Shown here: one piece after another, positions 30 to 34,903 of the stretch
Numbering within the stretch: position 1 is the first letter of the stretch
Layout: each line of letters starts with the position of its first letter
Source of the DNA: an uncultured Candidatus Saccharibacteria bacterium
GTDB taxonomy: Bacteria; Patescibacteriota; Saccharimonadia; Saccharimonadales; Saccharimonadaceae
Assembly: GCA_964629705.1 (NCBI GenBank)
Contig: CAZVTE010000001.1
Location: 1 to 34,903 of the forward strand
Reading direction: 5' to 3'
DNA: 34,903 nucleotides
Position numbers and translations under genes: made by a program
Notes under the pieces: generated by a model
Databases searched by the model: none
What the model was told of the DNA's origin: nothing
Seen by the model: only the letters and a program-made list of their open reading frames with translations

Positions 30-510
30 GCACACCGCTCGTTAAGGAGTGTTTTTGTTCCATCGGGGCTTCAATATTCGCTTGATTGAAGTTCCGTAGA
101 GTAAAAACGACTGCGGGAATCCCTAAGTTTAGTATTATTAAAAATTCGGTAGGTAAAGCATAATGATTCGCATTCAACATTTTTTAGAAAAACTAGAATG
201 CAGCTGCAGTCCTATGAAGTCGGCCTATTATTTGAGTTTTGGAGGTCATGACAGACGGGGTTGCAGCTGCAGGATAGATTACTACTCGGACAGTGGCACT
301 GTGTTTCTTAAGTCATATTTTTGCATCATAACGTCATTGGACTTCCTTAATCCATGCACTTTTAACCCACGTCAATTTTAGATACATAGCACTATTTCGC
401 AGTGCCACTATCCGAGTGGTAATAACTCAAGTAGACCATGCTGTTAGCGACATCTAGTTCATACTCTGCAACGGTTTTAGAAATCTTTTTGGTGTCGCTA
501 GTTGTATGGT
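30..510 (+). ncRNA. Structured non-coding leader of the early operon
   Basis: Hairpins 64-96, 199-271, 278-423 (26-bp stem) and 435-510, most with G-U pairs that work on the + strand; no convincing ORF. Confidence 0.6.
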
Positions 511-3238: not shown

Positions 3239-3328
3239 GCTGGTTTAATTCGTTAAAGTAGACGAACAAGTTTGTAAAACTTGTATCCTTTGAGATTCGA
3301 GTGGGTGCGATTCCCTCAACCAGCACCA
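3239..3328 (+). tRNA. tRNA-Tyr(GTA), atypical D and T loops
   Basis: Acceptor GCTGGTT/AACCAGC, A73, CCA; anticodon stem CAAGT/ACTTG with loop TTGTAAA; long variable arm. Confidence 0.75.
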
Positions 3329-3333
3329 ATATG

Positions 3334-3408
3334 GGGCGTCTAGTTTAGCTGGAAAGAACAGCTGTTAGCGCGACAGCAGATGCCGGTTCAAAGCCGGCGG
3401 CGCCCCCC
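3334..3408 (+). tRNA. tRNA-like gene, anticodon GCG (nominally Arg), non-canonical
   Basis: Acceptor GGGCGTC/GGCGCCC; stem GCTGT/ACAGC with loop TAGCGCG; T arm GCCGG-TTCAAAG-CCGGC. Confidence 0.7.
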
Positions 3409-3480
3409 TAAAAAAGTCCTCATACCGAGGTCGCGATAAGTATGAGTCCATATCTAGTCCTAGGCTAGACATGTCCATGT

Positions 3481-3557
3481 GGTGGGTATAGTCCAATGGT
3501 TAAGACACTAGTTTGTGGCACTAGAGATGCCAGTTCAATTCTGGCTACCCTACCCCA
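3481..3557 (+). tRNA. tRNA-His(GTG)
   Basis: G-1/C73, anticodon stem CTAGT/ACTAG with loop TTGTGGC, T arm, CCA; one bulged T in the acceptor stem. Confidence 0.85.
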
Positions 3558-3560
3558 TGA

Positions 3561-3637
3561 TCAAGAGTAGGCAAATTGGTAAAGCCACTAACCTTTGAAG
3601 TTAGAGTTTGTTGGCTCGAATCCAACTCCCGAAGCCA
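3561..3637 (+). tRNA. tRNA-Gln(TTG) with poorly paired acceptor stem (possible pseudo-tRNA)
   Basis: D arm, stem CTAAC/GTTAG with loop CTTTGAA, T arm and G-CCA intact; TCAAGAG/TCCCGAA mismatched. Confidence 0.7.
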
Positions 3638-12111: not shown

Positions 12112-12448
12112 GTGTCAGACCTACGATTTCCTTGAGATTACTAGGGGAAGCGTAAGGGGTAACGTTATTAAATCGCGCCGTTCACTCACTGGTATCTTTA
12201 AAGACCGAGATGGCATGGAGAAGTCTGGCAATGTCGAAACCTATAAGGCAGACGCACGTATCCATGTCAAGCCAGAGGACTTCCCCGGTCTCAGCCCTAA
12301 GCAGTTAATCGGCAACGGAATTGAAGTTAATGGACAAACTTACTCAATCGACAACGCTTCAAGCGGAACTAACTTTGAGAACGGAGAGATTGAACATTTT
12401 CGCCTAGACCTCAATCTAGCGCAGTTCGTGGAGGCGAGTAATGATTAG
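12083..12448 (+). CDS. Putative head-closure protein
   Basis: Synteny, size, IEVNGQTYSI. Confidence 0.55.
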   Translation: MSVRCFDVFKCQTYDFLEITRGSVRGNVIKSRRSLTGIFKDRDGMEKSGNVETYKADARIHVKPEDFPGLSPKQLIGNGIEVNGQTYSIDNASSGTNFENGEIEHFRLDLNLAQFVEASND

Positions 12449-12794
12449 CTATAACGTAAAGATAAAAGATAACTCTGCGGGCTGGATTCACAAAAAAGAG
12501 CGTGAGCTAGAGAAGGGGCTCAACACAATGGCAAAGGCGATTCTTGCCCGAGCGCAAGTGAAAGTACCTCTAAAAGGCGGTGCGCTAAAAGCATCTGGCA
12601 AGGTAACTGGCAAAAGCTTGGAACGCACGGTTAGCTTTGGTTCTGGCTTGAAGTACGGTGCATATCAAGAGAGGGGCGAAAGACTAGATGGCTCGCACAA
12701 AGTCCGGCGGTATACAACGCCCGGAACTTCTAAACATTACCTTAAAGATTCTGGCGATGCAGTAGTAAAGGAAGGGATTAAGAAATATCTATGA
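12441..12794 (+). CDS. Neck/minor capsid protein (HK97 gp10-like)
   Basis: VPLKGGALKAS, YGAYQE, YTTPGTSKHYL. Confidence 0.75.
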   Translation: MISYNVKIKDNSAGWIHKKERELEKGLNTMAKAILARAQVKVPLKGGALKASGKVTGKSLERTVSFGSGLKYGAYQERGERLDGSHKVRRYTTPGTSKHYLKDSGDAVVKEGIKKYL

Positions 12795-22190: not shown

Positions 22191-23767
22191 TAGACGTAAC
22201 GCCAGAATTTCACAAAAGAGCTTTTGGACAAGTAATTAGCCCGCTCATTGAGCTATATGTTTCATTTAACAAAGAACTGAATGAAGGTGAGTTTTTCACT
22301 CTCGACAAGTCTATGCTAAATGGTTCGGATGTGTTACGAGCAGGTTCTTCGGACGTTCCCGCTCAGGATTGGGACTTCTATAATTATAATGACTACTCGG
22401 ATAGACTAGTTTCGATCAACTGGTCACGTTCGCTCGAGTTTCCCTATCAAATCCAGTCTGGTATGGCAGATTTTAGCTTAAGCAACACTGATAATTTTTT
22501 CACACCCCTAAATCAAAACTCAACAATTGGCGAAGTGAATCTTCCGGCACGCCCTATACGTATTAGTGCTGGATTCCGTGGCACTAGTGATATAATTCCT
22601 CAATTTGCGGGATTAACGCAAGGTTTGCCCGATATTAAGAACGGCTCGCGTGTAGCGGATTATCATGCCATTGACTTCTTGTATGATATTTGTCAAACAC
22701 CACTTACTAAGGTGGTTAATATGCATGATGTAACTACCGACCAAGTCATTGCTAAAATTTTGGAAGCTTACGGACTAGCACCAAGCCAATACAATTTAGC
22801 TCAAGGAAAATATACTGTGCCATTCGTATTCTTTGATATTGGTGAGGATGCAGGCACAGCACTCAAGCAATTGGTACAGTCAGAGAATGGCTATATGTGG
22901 CTAGACGAGAAAGGGACGGTAAGGTTCGATACATACTCGAGGATTGCGAACGATACAAATATTGTAGCCACTTTATCGGATTACGATATTGTAGAAATCA
23001 GTAGCGGAGAGTTATCTGACATCGTTAATCATGTTAAGATTAGTGCTGAAGTGAGAGAATTGCAGGAATGGCAAGAGGTGTACACCAAATCAGACTCTTC
23101 TACTACCGTAAGTGATTCCCTTTGGACTGTTCCAGCGAACGGTACGAGAGAGGTTAAGTGTGGTTTATCTGACCCCTGTTATGACATTGTTGCGCCAACC
23201 TTAGGTAAGGCTTCTTCGGTTTCATGGTTTCAAGCAATTGACGAGCACTTAGAGCCCGTCACCTACGGTATCACAGCAACCGGAGAAATCACATCTAATT
23301 CCTACATTATCACATTCAAAAATAATCGAGCCTTTCCCGTAGAGATTTCAGAAATGAAATTATGGGGCGAACCTGCAAAAGTTATTGATGTCTTAGATTA
23401 TGACGCATATGACGATGAATCCGTTGAAATGTTTGGTGACCAACTACTAGAAATTAGTGACAACCAATTCTTCCAGACGTACAATCAAGCTGTTGATTTT
23501 GCAAAGTCAATAATTGGCGTCAGAAAAAACTACAAACGGACACTCAAAGTGTCCATCAAAGGCGATTTCTCTCTCCAGTTGATGGATATGGTTAAGATAG
23601 AGACGGAAAGCAAAGAATACGATGGAGTGTACCGAATACTAGGAATAAGCTACAAATATGAAAATAACAGATTAACCACAGATTTAGTCTTAAATGGCAC
23701 AAGCATCAAAGATGGTGTATTTACGCTGAATATTTCGAAGCTTAATGGAGAGGACTTAATACAATGA
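22187..23767 (+). CDS. Putative tail tip/baseplate hub protein
   Basis: LSNTDNFFTP, GYMWLDEKGTVRF, GDFSLQLMDMV; synteny. Confidence 0.7.
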   Translation: MIDVTPEFHKRAFGQVISPLIELYVSFNKELNEGEFFTLDKSMLNGSDVLRAGSSDVPAQDWDFYNYNDYSDRLVSINWSRSLEFPYQIQSGMADFSLSNTDNFFTPLNQNSTIGEVNLPARPIRISAGFRGTSDIIPQFAGLTQGLPDIKNGSRVADYHAIDFLYDICQTPLTKVVNMHDVTTDQVIAKILEAYGLAPSQYNLAQGKYTVPFVFFDIGEDAGTALKQLVQSENGYMWLDEKGTVRFDTYSRIANDTNIVATLSDYDIVEISSGELSDIVNHVKISAEVRELQEWQEVYTKSDSSTTVSDSLWTVPANGTREVKCGLSDPCYDIVAPTLGKASSVSWFQAIDEHLEPVTYGITATGEITSNSYIITFKNNRAFPVEISEMKLWGEPAKVIDVLDYDAYDDESVEMFGDQLLEISDNQFFQTYNQAVDFAKSIIGVRKNYKRTLKVSIKGDFSLQLMDMVKIETESKEYDGVYRILGISYKYENNRLTTDLVLNGTSIKDGVFTLNISKLNGEDLIQ

Positions 23768-31445: not shown

Positions 31446-31880
31446 CTAGCTACTTTTGTGTCTAGCGCTAGATGATCTAATTTTTTCTATAATAGGTGCG
31501 TTCAATATGTCTTTTTCGCTCCATAAAGCTTTAGATATACTATGTACTACTGCAATGATTTCTACAAACATAGCTGTGCCAATTATATCTAAAGTACCAT
31601 CACTGAGAACATCTATATTCATAGTAACCTTAAATGCTATTTTAAAAAACACCAAAACGATAAATAAAACCACTACATCTTCAGTTAATCTCAGCACAAA
31701 CTTAAGAACTTTATCTCTTTGGCTACTCCTTTGTTTCAATATCTTCATCACCTCGTCGCTTACGGACGGATCAGGCGCTTGAATCTCTGCCTGCGGTGAT
31801 TCTTCAGTATTATATTCTGATTCAGTAAAAAGAGTACGGTAAAATGCGCTCAAATCCTCTTCTAGTTCTGTTTCATCCAT
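31446..31880 (-). CDS. Two-TM membrane protein
   Basis: Acidic N-terminus, two hydrophobic helices; overlaps the ImmA-like gene. Confidence 0.8.
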   Translation of the reverse strand: MDETELEEDLSAFYRTLFTESEYNTEESPQAEIQAPDPSVSDEVMKILKQRSSQRDKVLKFVLRLTEDVVVLFIVLVFFKIAFKVTMNIDVLSDGTLDIIGTAMFVEIIAVVHSISKALWSEKDILNAPIIEKIRSSSARHKSS

Positions 31881-32368
31881 CTTACTCTATTCCTGACCGC
31901 TATAGTTGACACACCAAAGTACTTGGCTACTAAAGATTCATTATCTAAGAGTCTATATATCCTCCTAAATAATTCTTTGGGCATTAAAAGAGATGCAGCA
32001 AAATAGTTAGCTTCAGTTTCTTCTATCGACCCCTTGGAGTCATTATATGTAAAAAAGTCCAACCTAAACTTATCCTGGTTTGGGTGTAAAACAAAATGTC
32101 CGAATTCATGAGCTAGCGTAAAAGTTTTTCTCGCTGGAGATAAATCTTCGTTAATGAATATTCTTGCCTGGCCATCTTCATAAGAAATAGCTCCATTGAT
32201 TTTATGACGATTTTCCTGGAAGTCGAAATCATACAGCCCAATATTATCATAAGCAGTAATAATATCTTTGAGTCCATTTTCCGGATAAGTCATATCAACG
32301 TAATCTAAGATGTTACTAATTGTATCATCTATCTCATGCTGCCTATCAATAGTAAGCTTTCCTCTCAT
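31862..32368 (-). CDS. ImmA/IrrE-family metallopeptidase (DUF955)
   Basis: RKTFTLAHEFGHFVLH, EETEANYFAASLLMP, AKYFGVS..AVRNR. Confidence 0.93.
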   Translation of the reverse strand: MRGKLTIDRQHEIDDTISNILDYVDMTYPENGLKDIITAYDNIGLYDFDFQENRHKINGAISYEDGQARIFINEDLSPARKTFTLAHEFGHFVLHPNQDKFRLDFFTYNDSKGSIEETEANYFAASLLMPKELFRRIYRLLDNESLVAKYFGVSTIAVRNRVRWMKQN

Positions 32369-32795: not shown

Positions 32796-33188
32796 ATGTT
32801 AAGTGATGAACAAATTAGAATTATCGTCAATCAATTCGTGAAAATGGGTATGAAATTAGATTTCACCGGTCAAGGTCTGGAAATTGCCCTGTTCAGAAAT
32901 GACGACAGTTGGGACTTGCAAACGATTGAGCCGAGGTCTCCGAAACTCAAAGATGCGGAGTTACATTTTAGATTTCCGGATGATTTGCCAGAAGATAACC
33001 TAGATGCCGCGATTGAATTGGCTGGAATCTTGTCAATCAGACTGCACAAATACGCAAACAATAAGAAAGCCAATGCCGGAAAGACGCCAGAACAGCGTAA
33101 AGCTGCCGCCAAGAAAGCCATTGAAGCACGTTGGACAAAATACCGTGCAGAAAAAGCAAAAGCGGCGGAAAATGGTCTTGACAAATAG
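32796..33188 (+). CDS. Hypothetical protein with basic C-terminal TPEQRKAAAKKAIEARW motif (possible nucleic-acid binding)
   Basis: GAGGAG RBS; 130 aa. Confidence 0.8.
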   Translation: MLSDEQIRIIVNQFVKMGMKLDFTGQGLEIALFRNDDSWDLQTIEPRSPKLKDAELHFRFPDDLPEDNLDAAIELAGILSIRLHKYANNKKANAGKTPEQRKAAAKKAIEARWTKYRAEKAKAAENGLDK

Positions 33189-33206
33189 CTTCTGGTTTGA
33201 TACAAT
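33178..33206 (+). promoter_or_regulatory. Strong sigma70-type promoter TTGACA-17-(TG)TACAAT
   Basis: Near-consensus; predicted +1 about 33213. Confidence 0.85.
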
Positions 33207-33212
33207 AAAAAT

Positions 33213-33263
33213 AATCAAGCGAATATTGAAGCCCCGTCCCCTCTTTGAGGGTTGGGGCTTTTT
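33213..33263 (+). ncRNA. Putative ~50-nt terminated small RNA / attenuator leader
   Basis: Promoter, single-stranded 5' end, terminator AAGCCCC...GGGGCTT-TTT; 24-nt complement to 64-87. Confidence 0.65.
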
Positions 33264-33401
33264 CATAGTCTCAAAACAGGTACAAATACTCATAGGTTAG
33301 CAAAACGCTCGTTTGCTAGCTTATGAGTCACAAAATATTAACCGCTAGATTCTGCAACGAGCGGGCAGGATTTTGGTGCTAAAATTTACAACGGAGGTAA
33401 T

Positions 33402-33740
33402 ATGGGAAAAGTACAGGGATTCAATGAACTCATTGACAATGAAAGATTCCTTAAGGAATCTCCTTCAATGACAATGTCAATGAAGAGGGTTTACGGAGCG
33501 CGAGAAATTCCACTGGCGGAAGACGAAGTGGATGAACAGGCTGATTTACTCGTTGAGATGTTCGGAGCTAGAGACAGCAAAGGATTGTACTGTGACGCAG
33601 TGCGCTATTTAACTAAGGCGTTTCTTAACGAAAAGGCTAATTACGCCCTACAAAAGGGGCGCAATCCCGCTGCTTGTTTCGGTGCTATCGTTTACCGTCA
33701 ACTCCGCAAAGCTGGAGTGTACCCGAAACACGCCGTCTAG
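33402..33740 (+). CDS. Putative replication initiation/helicase-loader-like protein
   Basis: GGAGG RBS; ANYALQKGRNPAACFGAIV resembles DnaD/DnaB_C-type helices; internal iteron-like repeats. Confidence 0.45.
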   Translation: MGKVQGFNELIDNERFLKESPSMTMSMKRVYGAREIPLAEDEVDEQADLLVEMFGARDSKGLYCDAVRYLTKAFLNEKANYALQKGRNPAACFGAIVYRQLRKAGVYPKHAV

Positions 33741-33817
33741 CGTATTATCTCACGGATACGTTATACTATTACTCTTCCCTATCTATTATTAACTTAATGG
33801 GTGGGAGGAGTTTTTGT

Positions 33818-34723
33818 ATGCCATACAGAATTGAAAAATATATCAAAAACAACGATTTGCCAATCTGCTCACAGCTAATTAGATACTTTGATTATTGTCA
33901 ATTTGATTGCAACTTCACGAAAGACACAATGCGAGGAAAAACCTTATCTATTAACCATTTCGTTAAATGGTCAGAAATCGAAGATATTAACAATTTAACG
34001 ACTCGAATGGTACTGGACTATATAACCAATCAAGTTAAAGATGGTTTGATGCCTAGAACCATTAATAACCGCACTAAGCATCTTAAGGCGATGGTTAACT
34101 ATTTCAGAGATTATGAAGATATGGATATTCCTAACTTTCAAGAACGAAAGATTAAAAGACAGCATGAAGAAACGCCTTACAAGCGTGCGTTTTCAAGGGA
34201 AGCGGTATGCAAGGCGCTGCATTTTGCCGACCGTGAACCTTGGCTAATGATTAAGCTTTGCTTTGATTGTGGGCTAAGAATTCAAGAGCTTCAAAAGCTG
34301 AGATTAAGAGATATTCATGGGGACAAAGTCTCAATCCTCGGAAAGGGCAGAAAAAGGCGTCAAATCAATTTGTCCCACGAAGTCATTGTGAGATTAAATG
34401 ATTTCATTAAAAGGGAAAATGTAACCGATTACGTCTGGAAAAGCAAAACTAAACCAAACGTTCCAAAAACCACCGAGACAATCAGAAACATGATGCGCGC
34501 CCCATTCCAGTCCGCGGGCGTAGCAAATTTCTGTCCACATGAATTAAGATACTCATTCGCAACGGATTTGAAAAGACTCGGCGCATCAACTAGAAGTATT
34601 CAGCAAGGCTTAGGGCATTCATCAGAAAAGATCACAGAACACTACCTAAAAGACCTCGATGACGAAACCCTCAACGAATTGTACAAGCTCAAATATTCTG
34701 CTGACGAGCCAGAACTGTACTAA
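33818..34723 (+). CDS. int: Tyrosine recombinase/integrase
   Basis: CGLRIQE, GKGRKRR, HELRYSF, LGHSS, TEHY catalytic set; GGAGGAG RBS before ATG 33818. Confidence 0.95.
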   Translation: MPYRIEKYIKNNDLPICSQLIRYFDYCQFDCNFTKDTMRGKTLSINHFVKWSEIEDINNLTTRMVLDYITNQVKDGLMPRTINNRTKHLKAMVNYFRDYEDMDIPNFQERKIKRQHEETPYKRAFSREAVCKALHFADREPWLMIKLCFDCGLRIQELQKLRLRDIHGDKVSILGKGRKRRQINLSHEVIVRLNDFIKRENVTDYVWKSKTKPNVPKTTETIRNMMRAPFQSAGVANFCPHELRYSFATDLKRLGASTRSIQQGLGHSSEKITEHYLKDLDDETLNELYKLKYSADEPELY

Positions 34724-34773: not shown

Positions 34774-34802
34774 TTGACAGCGGGAAGAAAATTTGCTAAA
34801 AT
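34774..34802 (+). promoter_or_regulatory. Strong promoter TTGACA-17-(TG)TAAAAT firing across the terminal repeat
   Basis: Near-consensus with an A-rich UP region. Confidence 0.85.
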
Positions 34803-34884: not shown

Positions 34885-34903
34885 CACCACACGGGTGTCT
34901 TAA
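34885..34903. repeat. Right terminal direct repeat (putative att core)
   Basis: Identical to 1-19; lies in the dyad AGACAC-CACACGG-GTGTCT. Confidence 0.9.

What the first reader, a model, noticed from the sequence alone, without database searches (positions are those of the whole stretch)
33288..33377. Kissing-loop pair in the initiator/integrase leader with a trans competitor at 35-43
Seen: hairpin 33288-33328 (17-bp stem) presents CGCTCGTT (33306-33313). The next hairpin, 33344-33377 (G-U rich), has loop AACGAGCGG (33356-33364), and the two are complementary. CCGCTCGTT at 35-43 is a longer, perfect 9-nt complement of the same loop, about 20 nt upstream of the 24-nt target. Two independent contacts link the same two RNAs. 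Known analogues: two-site pairing of P1 C4 and pseudoknot control of IncI/IncB rep translation. Inference: the loop switches between a cis and a trans partner.
Basis: partly seen in the sequence, partly recalled or inferred. Interest (0 to 1): 0.82.

Follow-up and report, generated by a model that had tools for sequence, protein, structure and literature searches.

The report
Conserved kissing-loop RNA in Saccharibacteria prophages
Two hairpins in front of a phage's integrase operon keep matching loops across many related phages and are predicted to lock together in an uncatalogued RNA fold that likely helps control that operon, while the proposed competing site at the other end of the genome is missing from the relatives checked.

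Summary
The window is a complete temperate phage of a Saccharibacteria host.

The loop-loop pair is real. In 23 homologous leaders aligned by sequence alone, 92% of cells pair, five of six pairs change on both sides, and RNAalifold picks this helix unprompted. Rfam has no match.

The trans competitor is not supported. In 13 other prophages the best match to the second loop near the same target is 4-6 nt. Here 35-43 sits in a terminator-like hairpin whose sequence varies freely, and the kiss does not change predicted ribosome-site access.

The conserved contact between the two RNAs is the 24-nt one: a ~50-nt small RNA whose 5' part changes together with a target beside the attachment site.

Best reading: a fixed kissing-hairpin fold on the read-through mRNA of an unannotated 112-aa gene and the integrase, downstream of an RNA-RNA switch. 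Main rival: the loops pair between two molecules; a sister clade has a self-complementary loop instead. No function was tested, and 'initiator' is unproven.

The parts
33178..33206 (+). Promoter P1 (TTGACA-17-TACAAT), predicted start about 33213
   Evidence: 11 of 12 consensus match; a similar promoter precedes most homologous leaders
33213..33263 (+). Predicted ~50-nt small RNA: free 5' tail plus terminator-like hairpin 33228-33261 and U run
   Evidence: Fold; 5' part complementary to 64-87; same layout with other sequences in relatives
33288..33328 (+). Hairpin HP1, 17 bp, 7-nt loop
   Evidence: stem 9-17 bp in 23 homologues
33306..33311 (+). Loop core L2 (CGCTCG), pairs with L3
   Evidence: Covariation
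33329..33343 (+). A-rich linker; 2-24 nt in relatives, or carrying inserted hairpins
   Evidence: long inserts in L020, L070, G383:C21
33344..33377 (+). Hairpin HP2, G-U rich, U run on its 3' side
33358..33363 (+). Loop core L3 (CGAGCG), pairs with L2
   Evidence: Covariation
33393..33398 (+). Shine-Dalgarno GGAGGT
   Evidence: Sequence; conserved columns
33402..33740 (+). ORF112: unannotated family, four-helix domain at residues 40-104, disordered N-terminus; role in replication unproven
   Evidence: 286 representatives; no family or fold match
33420..33480 (.). Palindromic repeat array in the 5' part of ORF112 (iteron-like; label from general knowledge)
   Evidence: Inverted repeat 33431-33476; arrays with different repeat units in relatives
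33778..33805 (+). Hairpin running into the integrase ribosome-binding site
   Evidence: similar hairpin in most relatives
33818..34723 (+). Tyrosine integrase
   Evidence: PF00589 E 4.5e-25; phrog_1
34774..34802 (+). Promoter P2, pointing across the attachment site into the early leader in the circular form
   Evidence: junction 34903-to-20 present in contigs
34885..34903 (.). 19-nt attachment core, repeated at 1-19
   Evidence: host contig C123 continues from it
35..43 (+). CCGCTCGTT: 5' arm and loop of a weak terminator-like hairpin (about 32-56); complement of L3 in this phage only
64..87 (+). 24-nt target of the small RNA, inside a long hairpin (about 51-111) of the early leader
137..146 (+). 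Conserved AT-rich motif (ATTAACAAT in relatives), resembling rRNA boxA (recalled)
   Evidence: Pattern found in 7 of 13; host has NusB

Best explanation
The two hairpins carry loops that stay complementary through compensatory changes, so they are predicted to form a six-base-pair kissing contact, likely a fixed fold within one transcript that likely supports expression of ORF112 and the integrase, and likely not a switch to the site at 35-43. Steps. (1) Shown in sequence: promoter P1 is followed by a ~50-nt unit with a terminator-like hairpin, then HP1, HP2, a strong ribosome-binding site, ORF112 and the integrase. (2) Shown by comparison: the 5' part of the short unit is complementary to a site beside the attachment site in each phage, and the two change together. 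(3) Inferred: in the lysogen the short RNA is released and silences the early leader of an excised or incoming circle. When early RNA is abundant it pairs with the nascent short RNA, opens the terminator, and transcription runs on. (4) Inferred: only these read-through transcripts contain HP1 and HP2. The kiss packs about 90 nt into a compact knot 1-26 nt before the ribosome-binding site, serving as a stable platform or protein-binding site for translating ORF112. The regulated step is (3), not the kiss.
For: Detector for two hairpins with complementary loops: 20 of 30 leaders, against 2 of 150 shuffles and 2 of 200 other gene-upstream regions. On alignment A4 (23 leaders, plain MAFFT): 92% of 137 cells pair, 5 of 6 pairs and 14 cells change on both sides, 0 of 500 shuffles reach this, slid registers give 26-49%. 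RNAalifold returns only this helix. Swaps fall on separate branches: L016, L031, L066, L065/L067 and the seven-member CGCTT group. The + strand folds better in 19 of 23. Loop-to-loop distance is 34-52 nt in 21 of 23. The covariance model hits 10 places in 9 of 151 genomes, nine of them ORF112 leaders. In G075:C1 a gene lies between the short RNA and the element, which stays with ORF112. A target of 11-25 nt lies within 160 nt of the attachment core or attachment tRNA in 10 of 14 prophages. Cofolding gives the duplex in 11 of 13 and, by my reading of the structures, opens the terminator stem in 8 of 13.
Against: Nothing here shows transcription, folding or function. Covariation cannot tell cis from intermolecular pairing. 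11 of 23 linkers are 10 nt or less, and a rough estimate limits the inter-stem angle to 81 degrees or less in 3 of 18. Forcing the kiss barely changes predicted access to the ribosome site (at most 0.16 in 23 leaders), so no direct translational effect is visible. A sister clade (14 of 14 leaders) has both hairpins but no L2-L3 match over 4 nt, so ORF112 expression does not always need the pair. Six of these leaders were left out of A4. Detector thresholds were relaxed after a stricter run found 13 of 37; the controls used the relaxed ones. RNase J, which would make a 5' shield useful, was not found with PF17770 in the 87.6% complete host genome.
Confidence: 0.5

Rival explanations
1. The loops pair between two transcripts (L2 of one with L3 of the other, and back), forming a closed RNA dimer whose formation depends on transcript concentration and could report phage copy number.
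For: The pairing core sits at the 3' side of 6-12-nt loops in both hairpins, and linkers can be 2-10 nt. A sister clade has a self-complementary hexamer at the HP1 apex (TCCGGA in 10, CCCGGG in 4 of 14) and no partner in HP2. In ROOL and GOLLD RNAs, kissing loops first seen by covariation proved intermolecular, and palindrome switching was used as evidence (bioRxiv 10.1101/2024.12.08.627333, passages).
Against: A straight kiss can close within one molecule in 10 of 18 leaders, this window included (rough constants of my own). The base pair that switches in the palindromic clade could simply close a CCGG tetraloop. A cis partner has a far higher effective concentration (general knowledge).
Confidence: 0.25
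2. The fold acts on transcription or replication: it would modify RNA polymerase so that it passes the later hairpins (as HK022 put RNA does, recalled), or prepare the transcript to open or prime an origin in the repeat array of ORF112.
For: HP2 ends in a U run and a further hairpin precedes the integrase. An iteron-like array lies 20-80 nt into ORF112, with phage-specific repeat units. Ribosome-site access is unaffected.
Against: No origin or initiator function is shown; the DnaD-like match is Z 4.0 at rank 38. No sequence match to a known antiterminator RNA.
Confidence: 0.13
3. One reading: after the 24-nt contact, 35-43 of the early RNA displaces L2 from L3 and changes ORF112 translation, at least in this phage lineage.
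For: The 9-bp trans duplex (-14.5 kcal/mol) is stronger than the 6-bp cis core (-8.6). The order of the two sites suits antiparallel pairing. None of up to 300 background windows matched as well. In the circular form the site lies downstream of P2.
Against: 0 of 13 other prophages (best 4-6 nt, within background). Positions 35-40 are mostly predicted paired (unpaired 0.19 or less for two transcript lengths, up to 0.53 for a third). C113 and C151 keep the 24-nt target with other hairpins at this place. No change in ribosome-site access. The left ends of the closest relatives could not be obtained, so a lineage-limited contact is not excluded.
Confidence: 0.07
4. The fold forms on single-stranded DNA of the + strand next to a replication origin rather than on RNA.
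For: Strand asymmetry fits + strand DNA as well as RNA; the repeat array is close.
Against: It lies between a promoter and a ribosome-binding site in every leader that has it. Loop-loop helices with wobble pairs are weaker in DNA (general knowledge).
Confidence: 0.05

Closest known systems
ColIb-P9 (IncI) rep pseudoknot with Inc RNA; IncB and IncL/M relatives (PMC4705826, passages read)
   Same: A hairpin loop pairs with a sequence just before the ribosome-binding site of a gene in a mobile element; short GC-rich pairing core.
   Different: There the partner is freed from a stem that hides a weak SD and GUG, a leader peptide triggers it, and an antisense RNA competes for the loop. Here both partners are loops, the SD is strong with AUG, access is unchanged, and no conserved competitor was found.
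P1/P7 C4 antisense RNA (PMC12197685, passages); P4 CI RNA (recalled)
   Same: A small phage RNA encoded apart from its target whose sequence would set immunity specificity: this fits the 24-nt contact.
   Different: No Rfam match. The target is beside the attachment site and joins promoter P2 only in the circular form. The kissing hairpins are not part of the short RNA.
Gifsy-1 IsrK (PMC4825925, abstract)
   Same: One prophage promoter gives a short terminated RNA and a long read-through mRNA.
   Different: Short IsrK activates its own long form; here the short RNA pairs with another operon's leader.
Intermolecular kissing loops of ROOL, GOLLD, OLE (bioRxiv 10.1101/2024.12.08.627333, passages); retroviral dimer signals (recalled)
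   Same: Six-base loop pairing with covariation; a palindromic variant.
   Different: This is a ~90-nt mRNA leader element, and dimerisation is untested.

Membership tests
Any Rfam 15 family (incl. C4, c4-2, lysM-TM7, int-alpA) | Match at gathering score | tested here: not met
   Window: tRNAs only; leader at E<=10: three chance hits; nine related loci: tRNAs only
IncI/IncB rep pseudoknot | SD and start codon hidden in a stem that the pseudoknot opens | tested here: not met
   SD unpaired probability changes by at most 0.16 in 23 leaders when both cores are held open (thermodynamic model only)
IncI/IncB rep pseudoknot | Weak SD with GUG start | tested here: not met
   GGAGG-type SD with ATG here and in the aligned leaders
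IncI/IncB rep pseudoknot | Antisense RNA that binds the upstream loop | tested here: not met
   No - strand promoter with 10 or more of 12 matches facing the leader; best complement of L2 near the early leader 5-6 nt in six prophages
IncI/IncB rep pseudoknot | Translated leader peptide ending near the SD | tested here: inconclusive
   A 19-codon frame 33323-33382 exists, without SD and starting inside HP1; no ATG at the aligned place in L015 (read); not surveyed across all leaders
P1 C4-type two-site antisense | Two conserved target sites for one RNA | tested here: not met
   Second site in 0 of 13 other prophages
P1 C4-type antisense | Trans-encoded small RNA with phage-specific complementarity to a lytic transcript | tested here: met
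   Own target scores best in 13 of 13 (targets were chosen as longest complement, so partly by construction); beside att in 10 of 14
P1 C4-type antisense | RNA is expressed and confers immunity | not testable with these tools
   Needs RNA data or a lysogen
Phage replication initiator (DnaD/DnaB_2-like) | Sequence or fold match for ORF112 | tested here: inconclusive
   No Pfam or PHROG family across 139 members; 2zc2 Z 4.0, rmsd 3.7, 62 aligned; no Foldseek hit at E<=0.001
Dimer-forming kissing-loop RNAs | Intermolecular pairing | not testable with these tools
   Only indirect signs

The most novel reading that the evidence does not exclude
Temperate phages of Saccharibacteria run lysis-lysogeny on RNA alone. 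A small RNA and the early leader shut each other off across the attachment site, and the read-through mRNA for ORF112 and the integrase dimerises through cross-kissing loops (self-kissing in one clade), so that RNA-RNA assembly senses phage copy number.
Probability: 0.2. Interest if true: 0.87.

Novelty: new variant of a known kind. Interest (0 to 1): 0.64.

Why it matters
It defines a structured RNA family absent from Rfam, with clear covariation, in prophages of a bacterial group whose phage regulation is barely studied. It sits in a conserved cassette in which a small RNA and its target change together across phages, a likely RNA-based immunity code; no CI-like repressor was found in this phage by Pfam or PHROG. 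Natural loop variants give ready swap experiments. If the pairing is intermolecular, it would be an mRNA leader that dimerises to control integration or replication.

Tried and rejected
Second trans contact at 35-43: rejected as a conserved feature. For G312:C1 the loop window was shifted by about 3 nt but held the core; G319:C6 and G321:C13 are near-identical, so the 13 are not all independent.

IncI-type opening of the SD: no predicted effect. A closing stem GTAC/GTGC (three-way junction): not kept in relatives by eye and not picked by RNAalifold. L2 pairing with the SD region: no matching change in relatives (by eye).

ORF112 function: Pfam, PHROG, PDB sequence, Foldseek and VIA-align gave nothing clear; ESM Atlas gave no answer; no match among 50,697 phage records.

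Collection scans mostly returned noise: L006 was spurious, the integrase and metagenome protein scans found nothing, and 239 pattern loci held no early-leader relative and one ORF112 homologue identical in score to L015. Two marginal model hits (29 bits; G000:C2, G080:C9) are not this element.

No RNA holder listed. Rho not found with PF07497 and RNase J not with PF17770 in an 87.6% complete genome; RNase III found. Earlier scan findings: none.

Literature: ten searches showed no description of this element or cassette. Term look-ups in PMC12911398, PMC11659515, PMC5737381 and PMC4615214 found none either. The library lacks most subscription papers, and I did not read supplements of motif surveys (for example PMC5737381), which could list it.

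Full report
CONTEXT. The window is contig C1 of a 1.11-Mb, 87.6% complete genome. It encodes terminase, portal, capsid protease, tape measure, endolysin and a tyrosine integrase. Two relatives found by the 33402 protein carry record titles naming Saccharibacteria, so I infer that host group. A 19-nt terminal repeat is the attachment core: host contig C123 continues from it, and assembled contigs from four runs of one study show the circular junction, two of them also a second continuation (these runs may be the source of the window).

OBSERVATION. Everything described is present. One correction: the HP1 loop is 7 nt, so six bases are free to pair. The two-hairpin stretch folds at z -4.7.

HOMOLOGUES. 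The 33402 protein has 10 close relatives and 286 representatives at 50% identity. A profile finds it in 41 of 369 genomes of the genus and weakly in 7 of 401 of the order, own genome included in both counts. I extracted 37 distinct leaders and kept 30 with a ribosome-binding site and plausible start, dropping L029, L069, L081-L085. A strict detector for two hairpins with complementary loops found 13 of 37. Relaxed, it found 20 of 30 (for L072 and L073 in a shifted register), against 2 of 150 shuffles and 2 of 200 other upstream regions.

COVARIATION. I aligned 23 of the 30 by sequence alone, leaving out one near-duplicate (L021) and six leaders of a clade without the pair. The loop cores fell in register. 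Of 137 cells 92% pair; 5 of 6 pairs and 14 cells change on both sides; 0 of 500 shuffles reach that; slid registers pair at 26-49%. L067 is misaligned there, which lowers the count. RNAalifold returns five of these pairs and nothing else. Variants include CGTTCG/CGAACG, CGCTCT/AGAGCG, CGCTTG/CAAGCG, CAATCG/CGATTG and CGTACG/CGTGCG, and they fall on separate branches of the protein tree, though 8 of 19 inner forks are weak. Seven of 23 cores have one or two mismatches. The stems also covary (73.6% paired, 23 of 26 pairs, on an alignment fitted to my structure). A covariance model hits 10 places in 9 of 151 genomes; nine are ORF112 leaders and one is a marginal unrelated hit. Rfam has no match.

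THE TRANS SITE. For 14 prophages I could place both the leader and the target of the 24-nt-type contact. Within 100 nt of the target, the best perfect complement of the L3 loop is 9 nt in this window and 4-6 nt in the 13 others, within background. At the place of 35-43, several relatives have a hairpin followed by a U run. Two host contigs that carry the identical 24-nt target have unrelated hairpins there. In the P2 transcript, 35-40 is mostly predicted paired. I could not obtain the left ends of the closest relatives, so a recent lineage-specific contact remains possible (7%).

WHAT IS CONSERVED BETWEEN THE TWO RNAs. Promoter P1 is followed by a free 5' tail and a terminator-like hairpin. 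The tail and the hairpin's 5' arm have an 11-25-nt perfect complement elsewhere in each prophage, within 160 nt of the attachment core or attachment tRNA in 10 of 14. The sequence differs between phages and each short RNA pairs best with its own target in 13 of 13 (partly by construction). Cofolding forms the duplex in 11 of 13 and, in this window, refolds the early leader into another hairpin. Promoter P2 after the integrase reaches the target only in the circular form. I infer mutual control: the short RNA silences the early leader, and abundant early RNA opens the terminator so that ORF112 and the integrase are transcribed. This is untested.

WHAT THE KISS DOES. It exists only on read-through transcripts, stays with ORF112 when a gene is inserted upstream (G075:C1), tolerates inserted hairpins in its linker, and keeps structure more than sequence. 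It does not change predicted access to the ribosome site, so it is not an IncI-type switch (PMC4705826, passages). I favour a fixed cis fold serving expression of ORF112: pairing real about 0.95, cis about 0.65, role inferred. The main rival is a cross-kissing dimer. Cores sit at the 3' side of small loops, 11 of 23 linkers are 10 nt or less, and 14 of 14 leaders of a sister clade have a self-complementary hexamer in HP1 and no partner in HP2. Covarying kisses in ROOL and GOLLD proved intermolecular (bioRxiv 10.1101/2024.12.08.627333, passages). Against this, a rough estimate lets 10 of 18 leaders, this one included, close a straight kiss in cis, and the palindrome change could be an ordinary closing pair.

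ORF112. A four-helix domain with a disordered N-terminus, no family or fold assignment. Its first 90 nt carry palindromic repeat arrays with phage-specific units, which suggests an origin or operator, but 'initiator' is a guess.

COMPARISON AND NOVELTY. The cassette works like C4-type RNA immunity (PMC12197685, passages) with the short/long isoform layout of IsrK (PMC4825925, abstract), but belongs to neither family. Ten literature searches found no description; the library is incomplete and motif-survey supplements were not read.

VERDICT. Observation confirmed; cis/trans switch not supported; a new, covarying kissing-hairpin RNA in a conserved RNA-controlled cassette of Saccharibacteria prophages. 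Interest 0.64.

Noticed in passing
window 33213-33263 with 64-87; 13 other prophages: A small RNA whose 5' part changes together with a target beside the attachment site: a likely RNA-based immunity code and mutual switch. Arguably the larger finding.
   Followed up: partly
window 34774-34802 to 1-170: Promoter P2 after the integrase points across the attachment site, so the early leader would gain it only after excision; a similar promoter follows the integrase in many relatives.
   Followed up: partly
window 93-146: Downstream of the target, an alternative hairpin forms when the small RNA binds (perfect 8-bp version in G319:C2), followed by a motif resembling rRNA boxA (recalled; pattern in 7 of 13). 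The host has NusB.
   Followed up: partly
window 33420-33480; relatives: Palindromic repeat array in the 5' part of ORF112, with at least five different repeat units among relatives; the protein has no recognisable DNA-binding N-terminus.
   Followed up: partly
window 33771-33812; relatives: A hairpin covers the integrase ribosome-binding site in most relatives, suggesting translational coupling to ORF112.
   Followed up: no
G000:C113 3135-3252, C151 2074-2161, C93 1094-1184: Host contigs carry the early-leader element (two with the exact 24-nt target, one decayed beside a tRNA-Gly): probable remnants of related elements that the small RNA could also bind.
   Followed up: partly
L028, L032, L074-L077, G013:C49, G025:C8, G089:C8, G176:C4, G200:C1, G233:C4, G256:C22, G310:C4: Clade with a palindromic hexamer at the HP1 apex and no loop partner in HP2.
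   Followed up: partly
G105:C17 about 12250-12550 (L016/L019): 150-bp tandem duplication of promoter P1 and the small RNA.
   Followed up: no
G075:C1 (L033) and G319:C52 (L035): In one a 128-codon gene lies between the small RNA and the kissing hairpins; in the other the 3' half of the terminator hairpin appears deleted.
   Followed up: no
window 31862-32368 (-) and 31446-31880 (-): ImmA/IrrE-like M78 peptidase with an unannotated neighbour; no CI-like repressor found among the ORFs scanned.
   Followed up: no
window 3239-3637; 278-423: Four tRNA genes (Tyr, Arg, His, Gln) and a 24-nt inverted repeat pair at 278-301 / 400-423 in the long early leader.
   Followed up: no
L362 (G000:C2 about 23040-23215): Marginal model hit with several DnaA-box-like 9-mers (motif recalled): possibly the host replication origin.
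   Followed up: no
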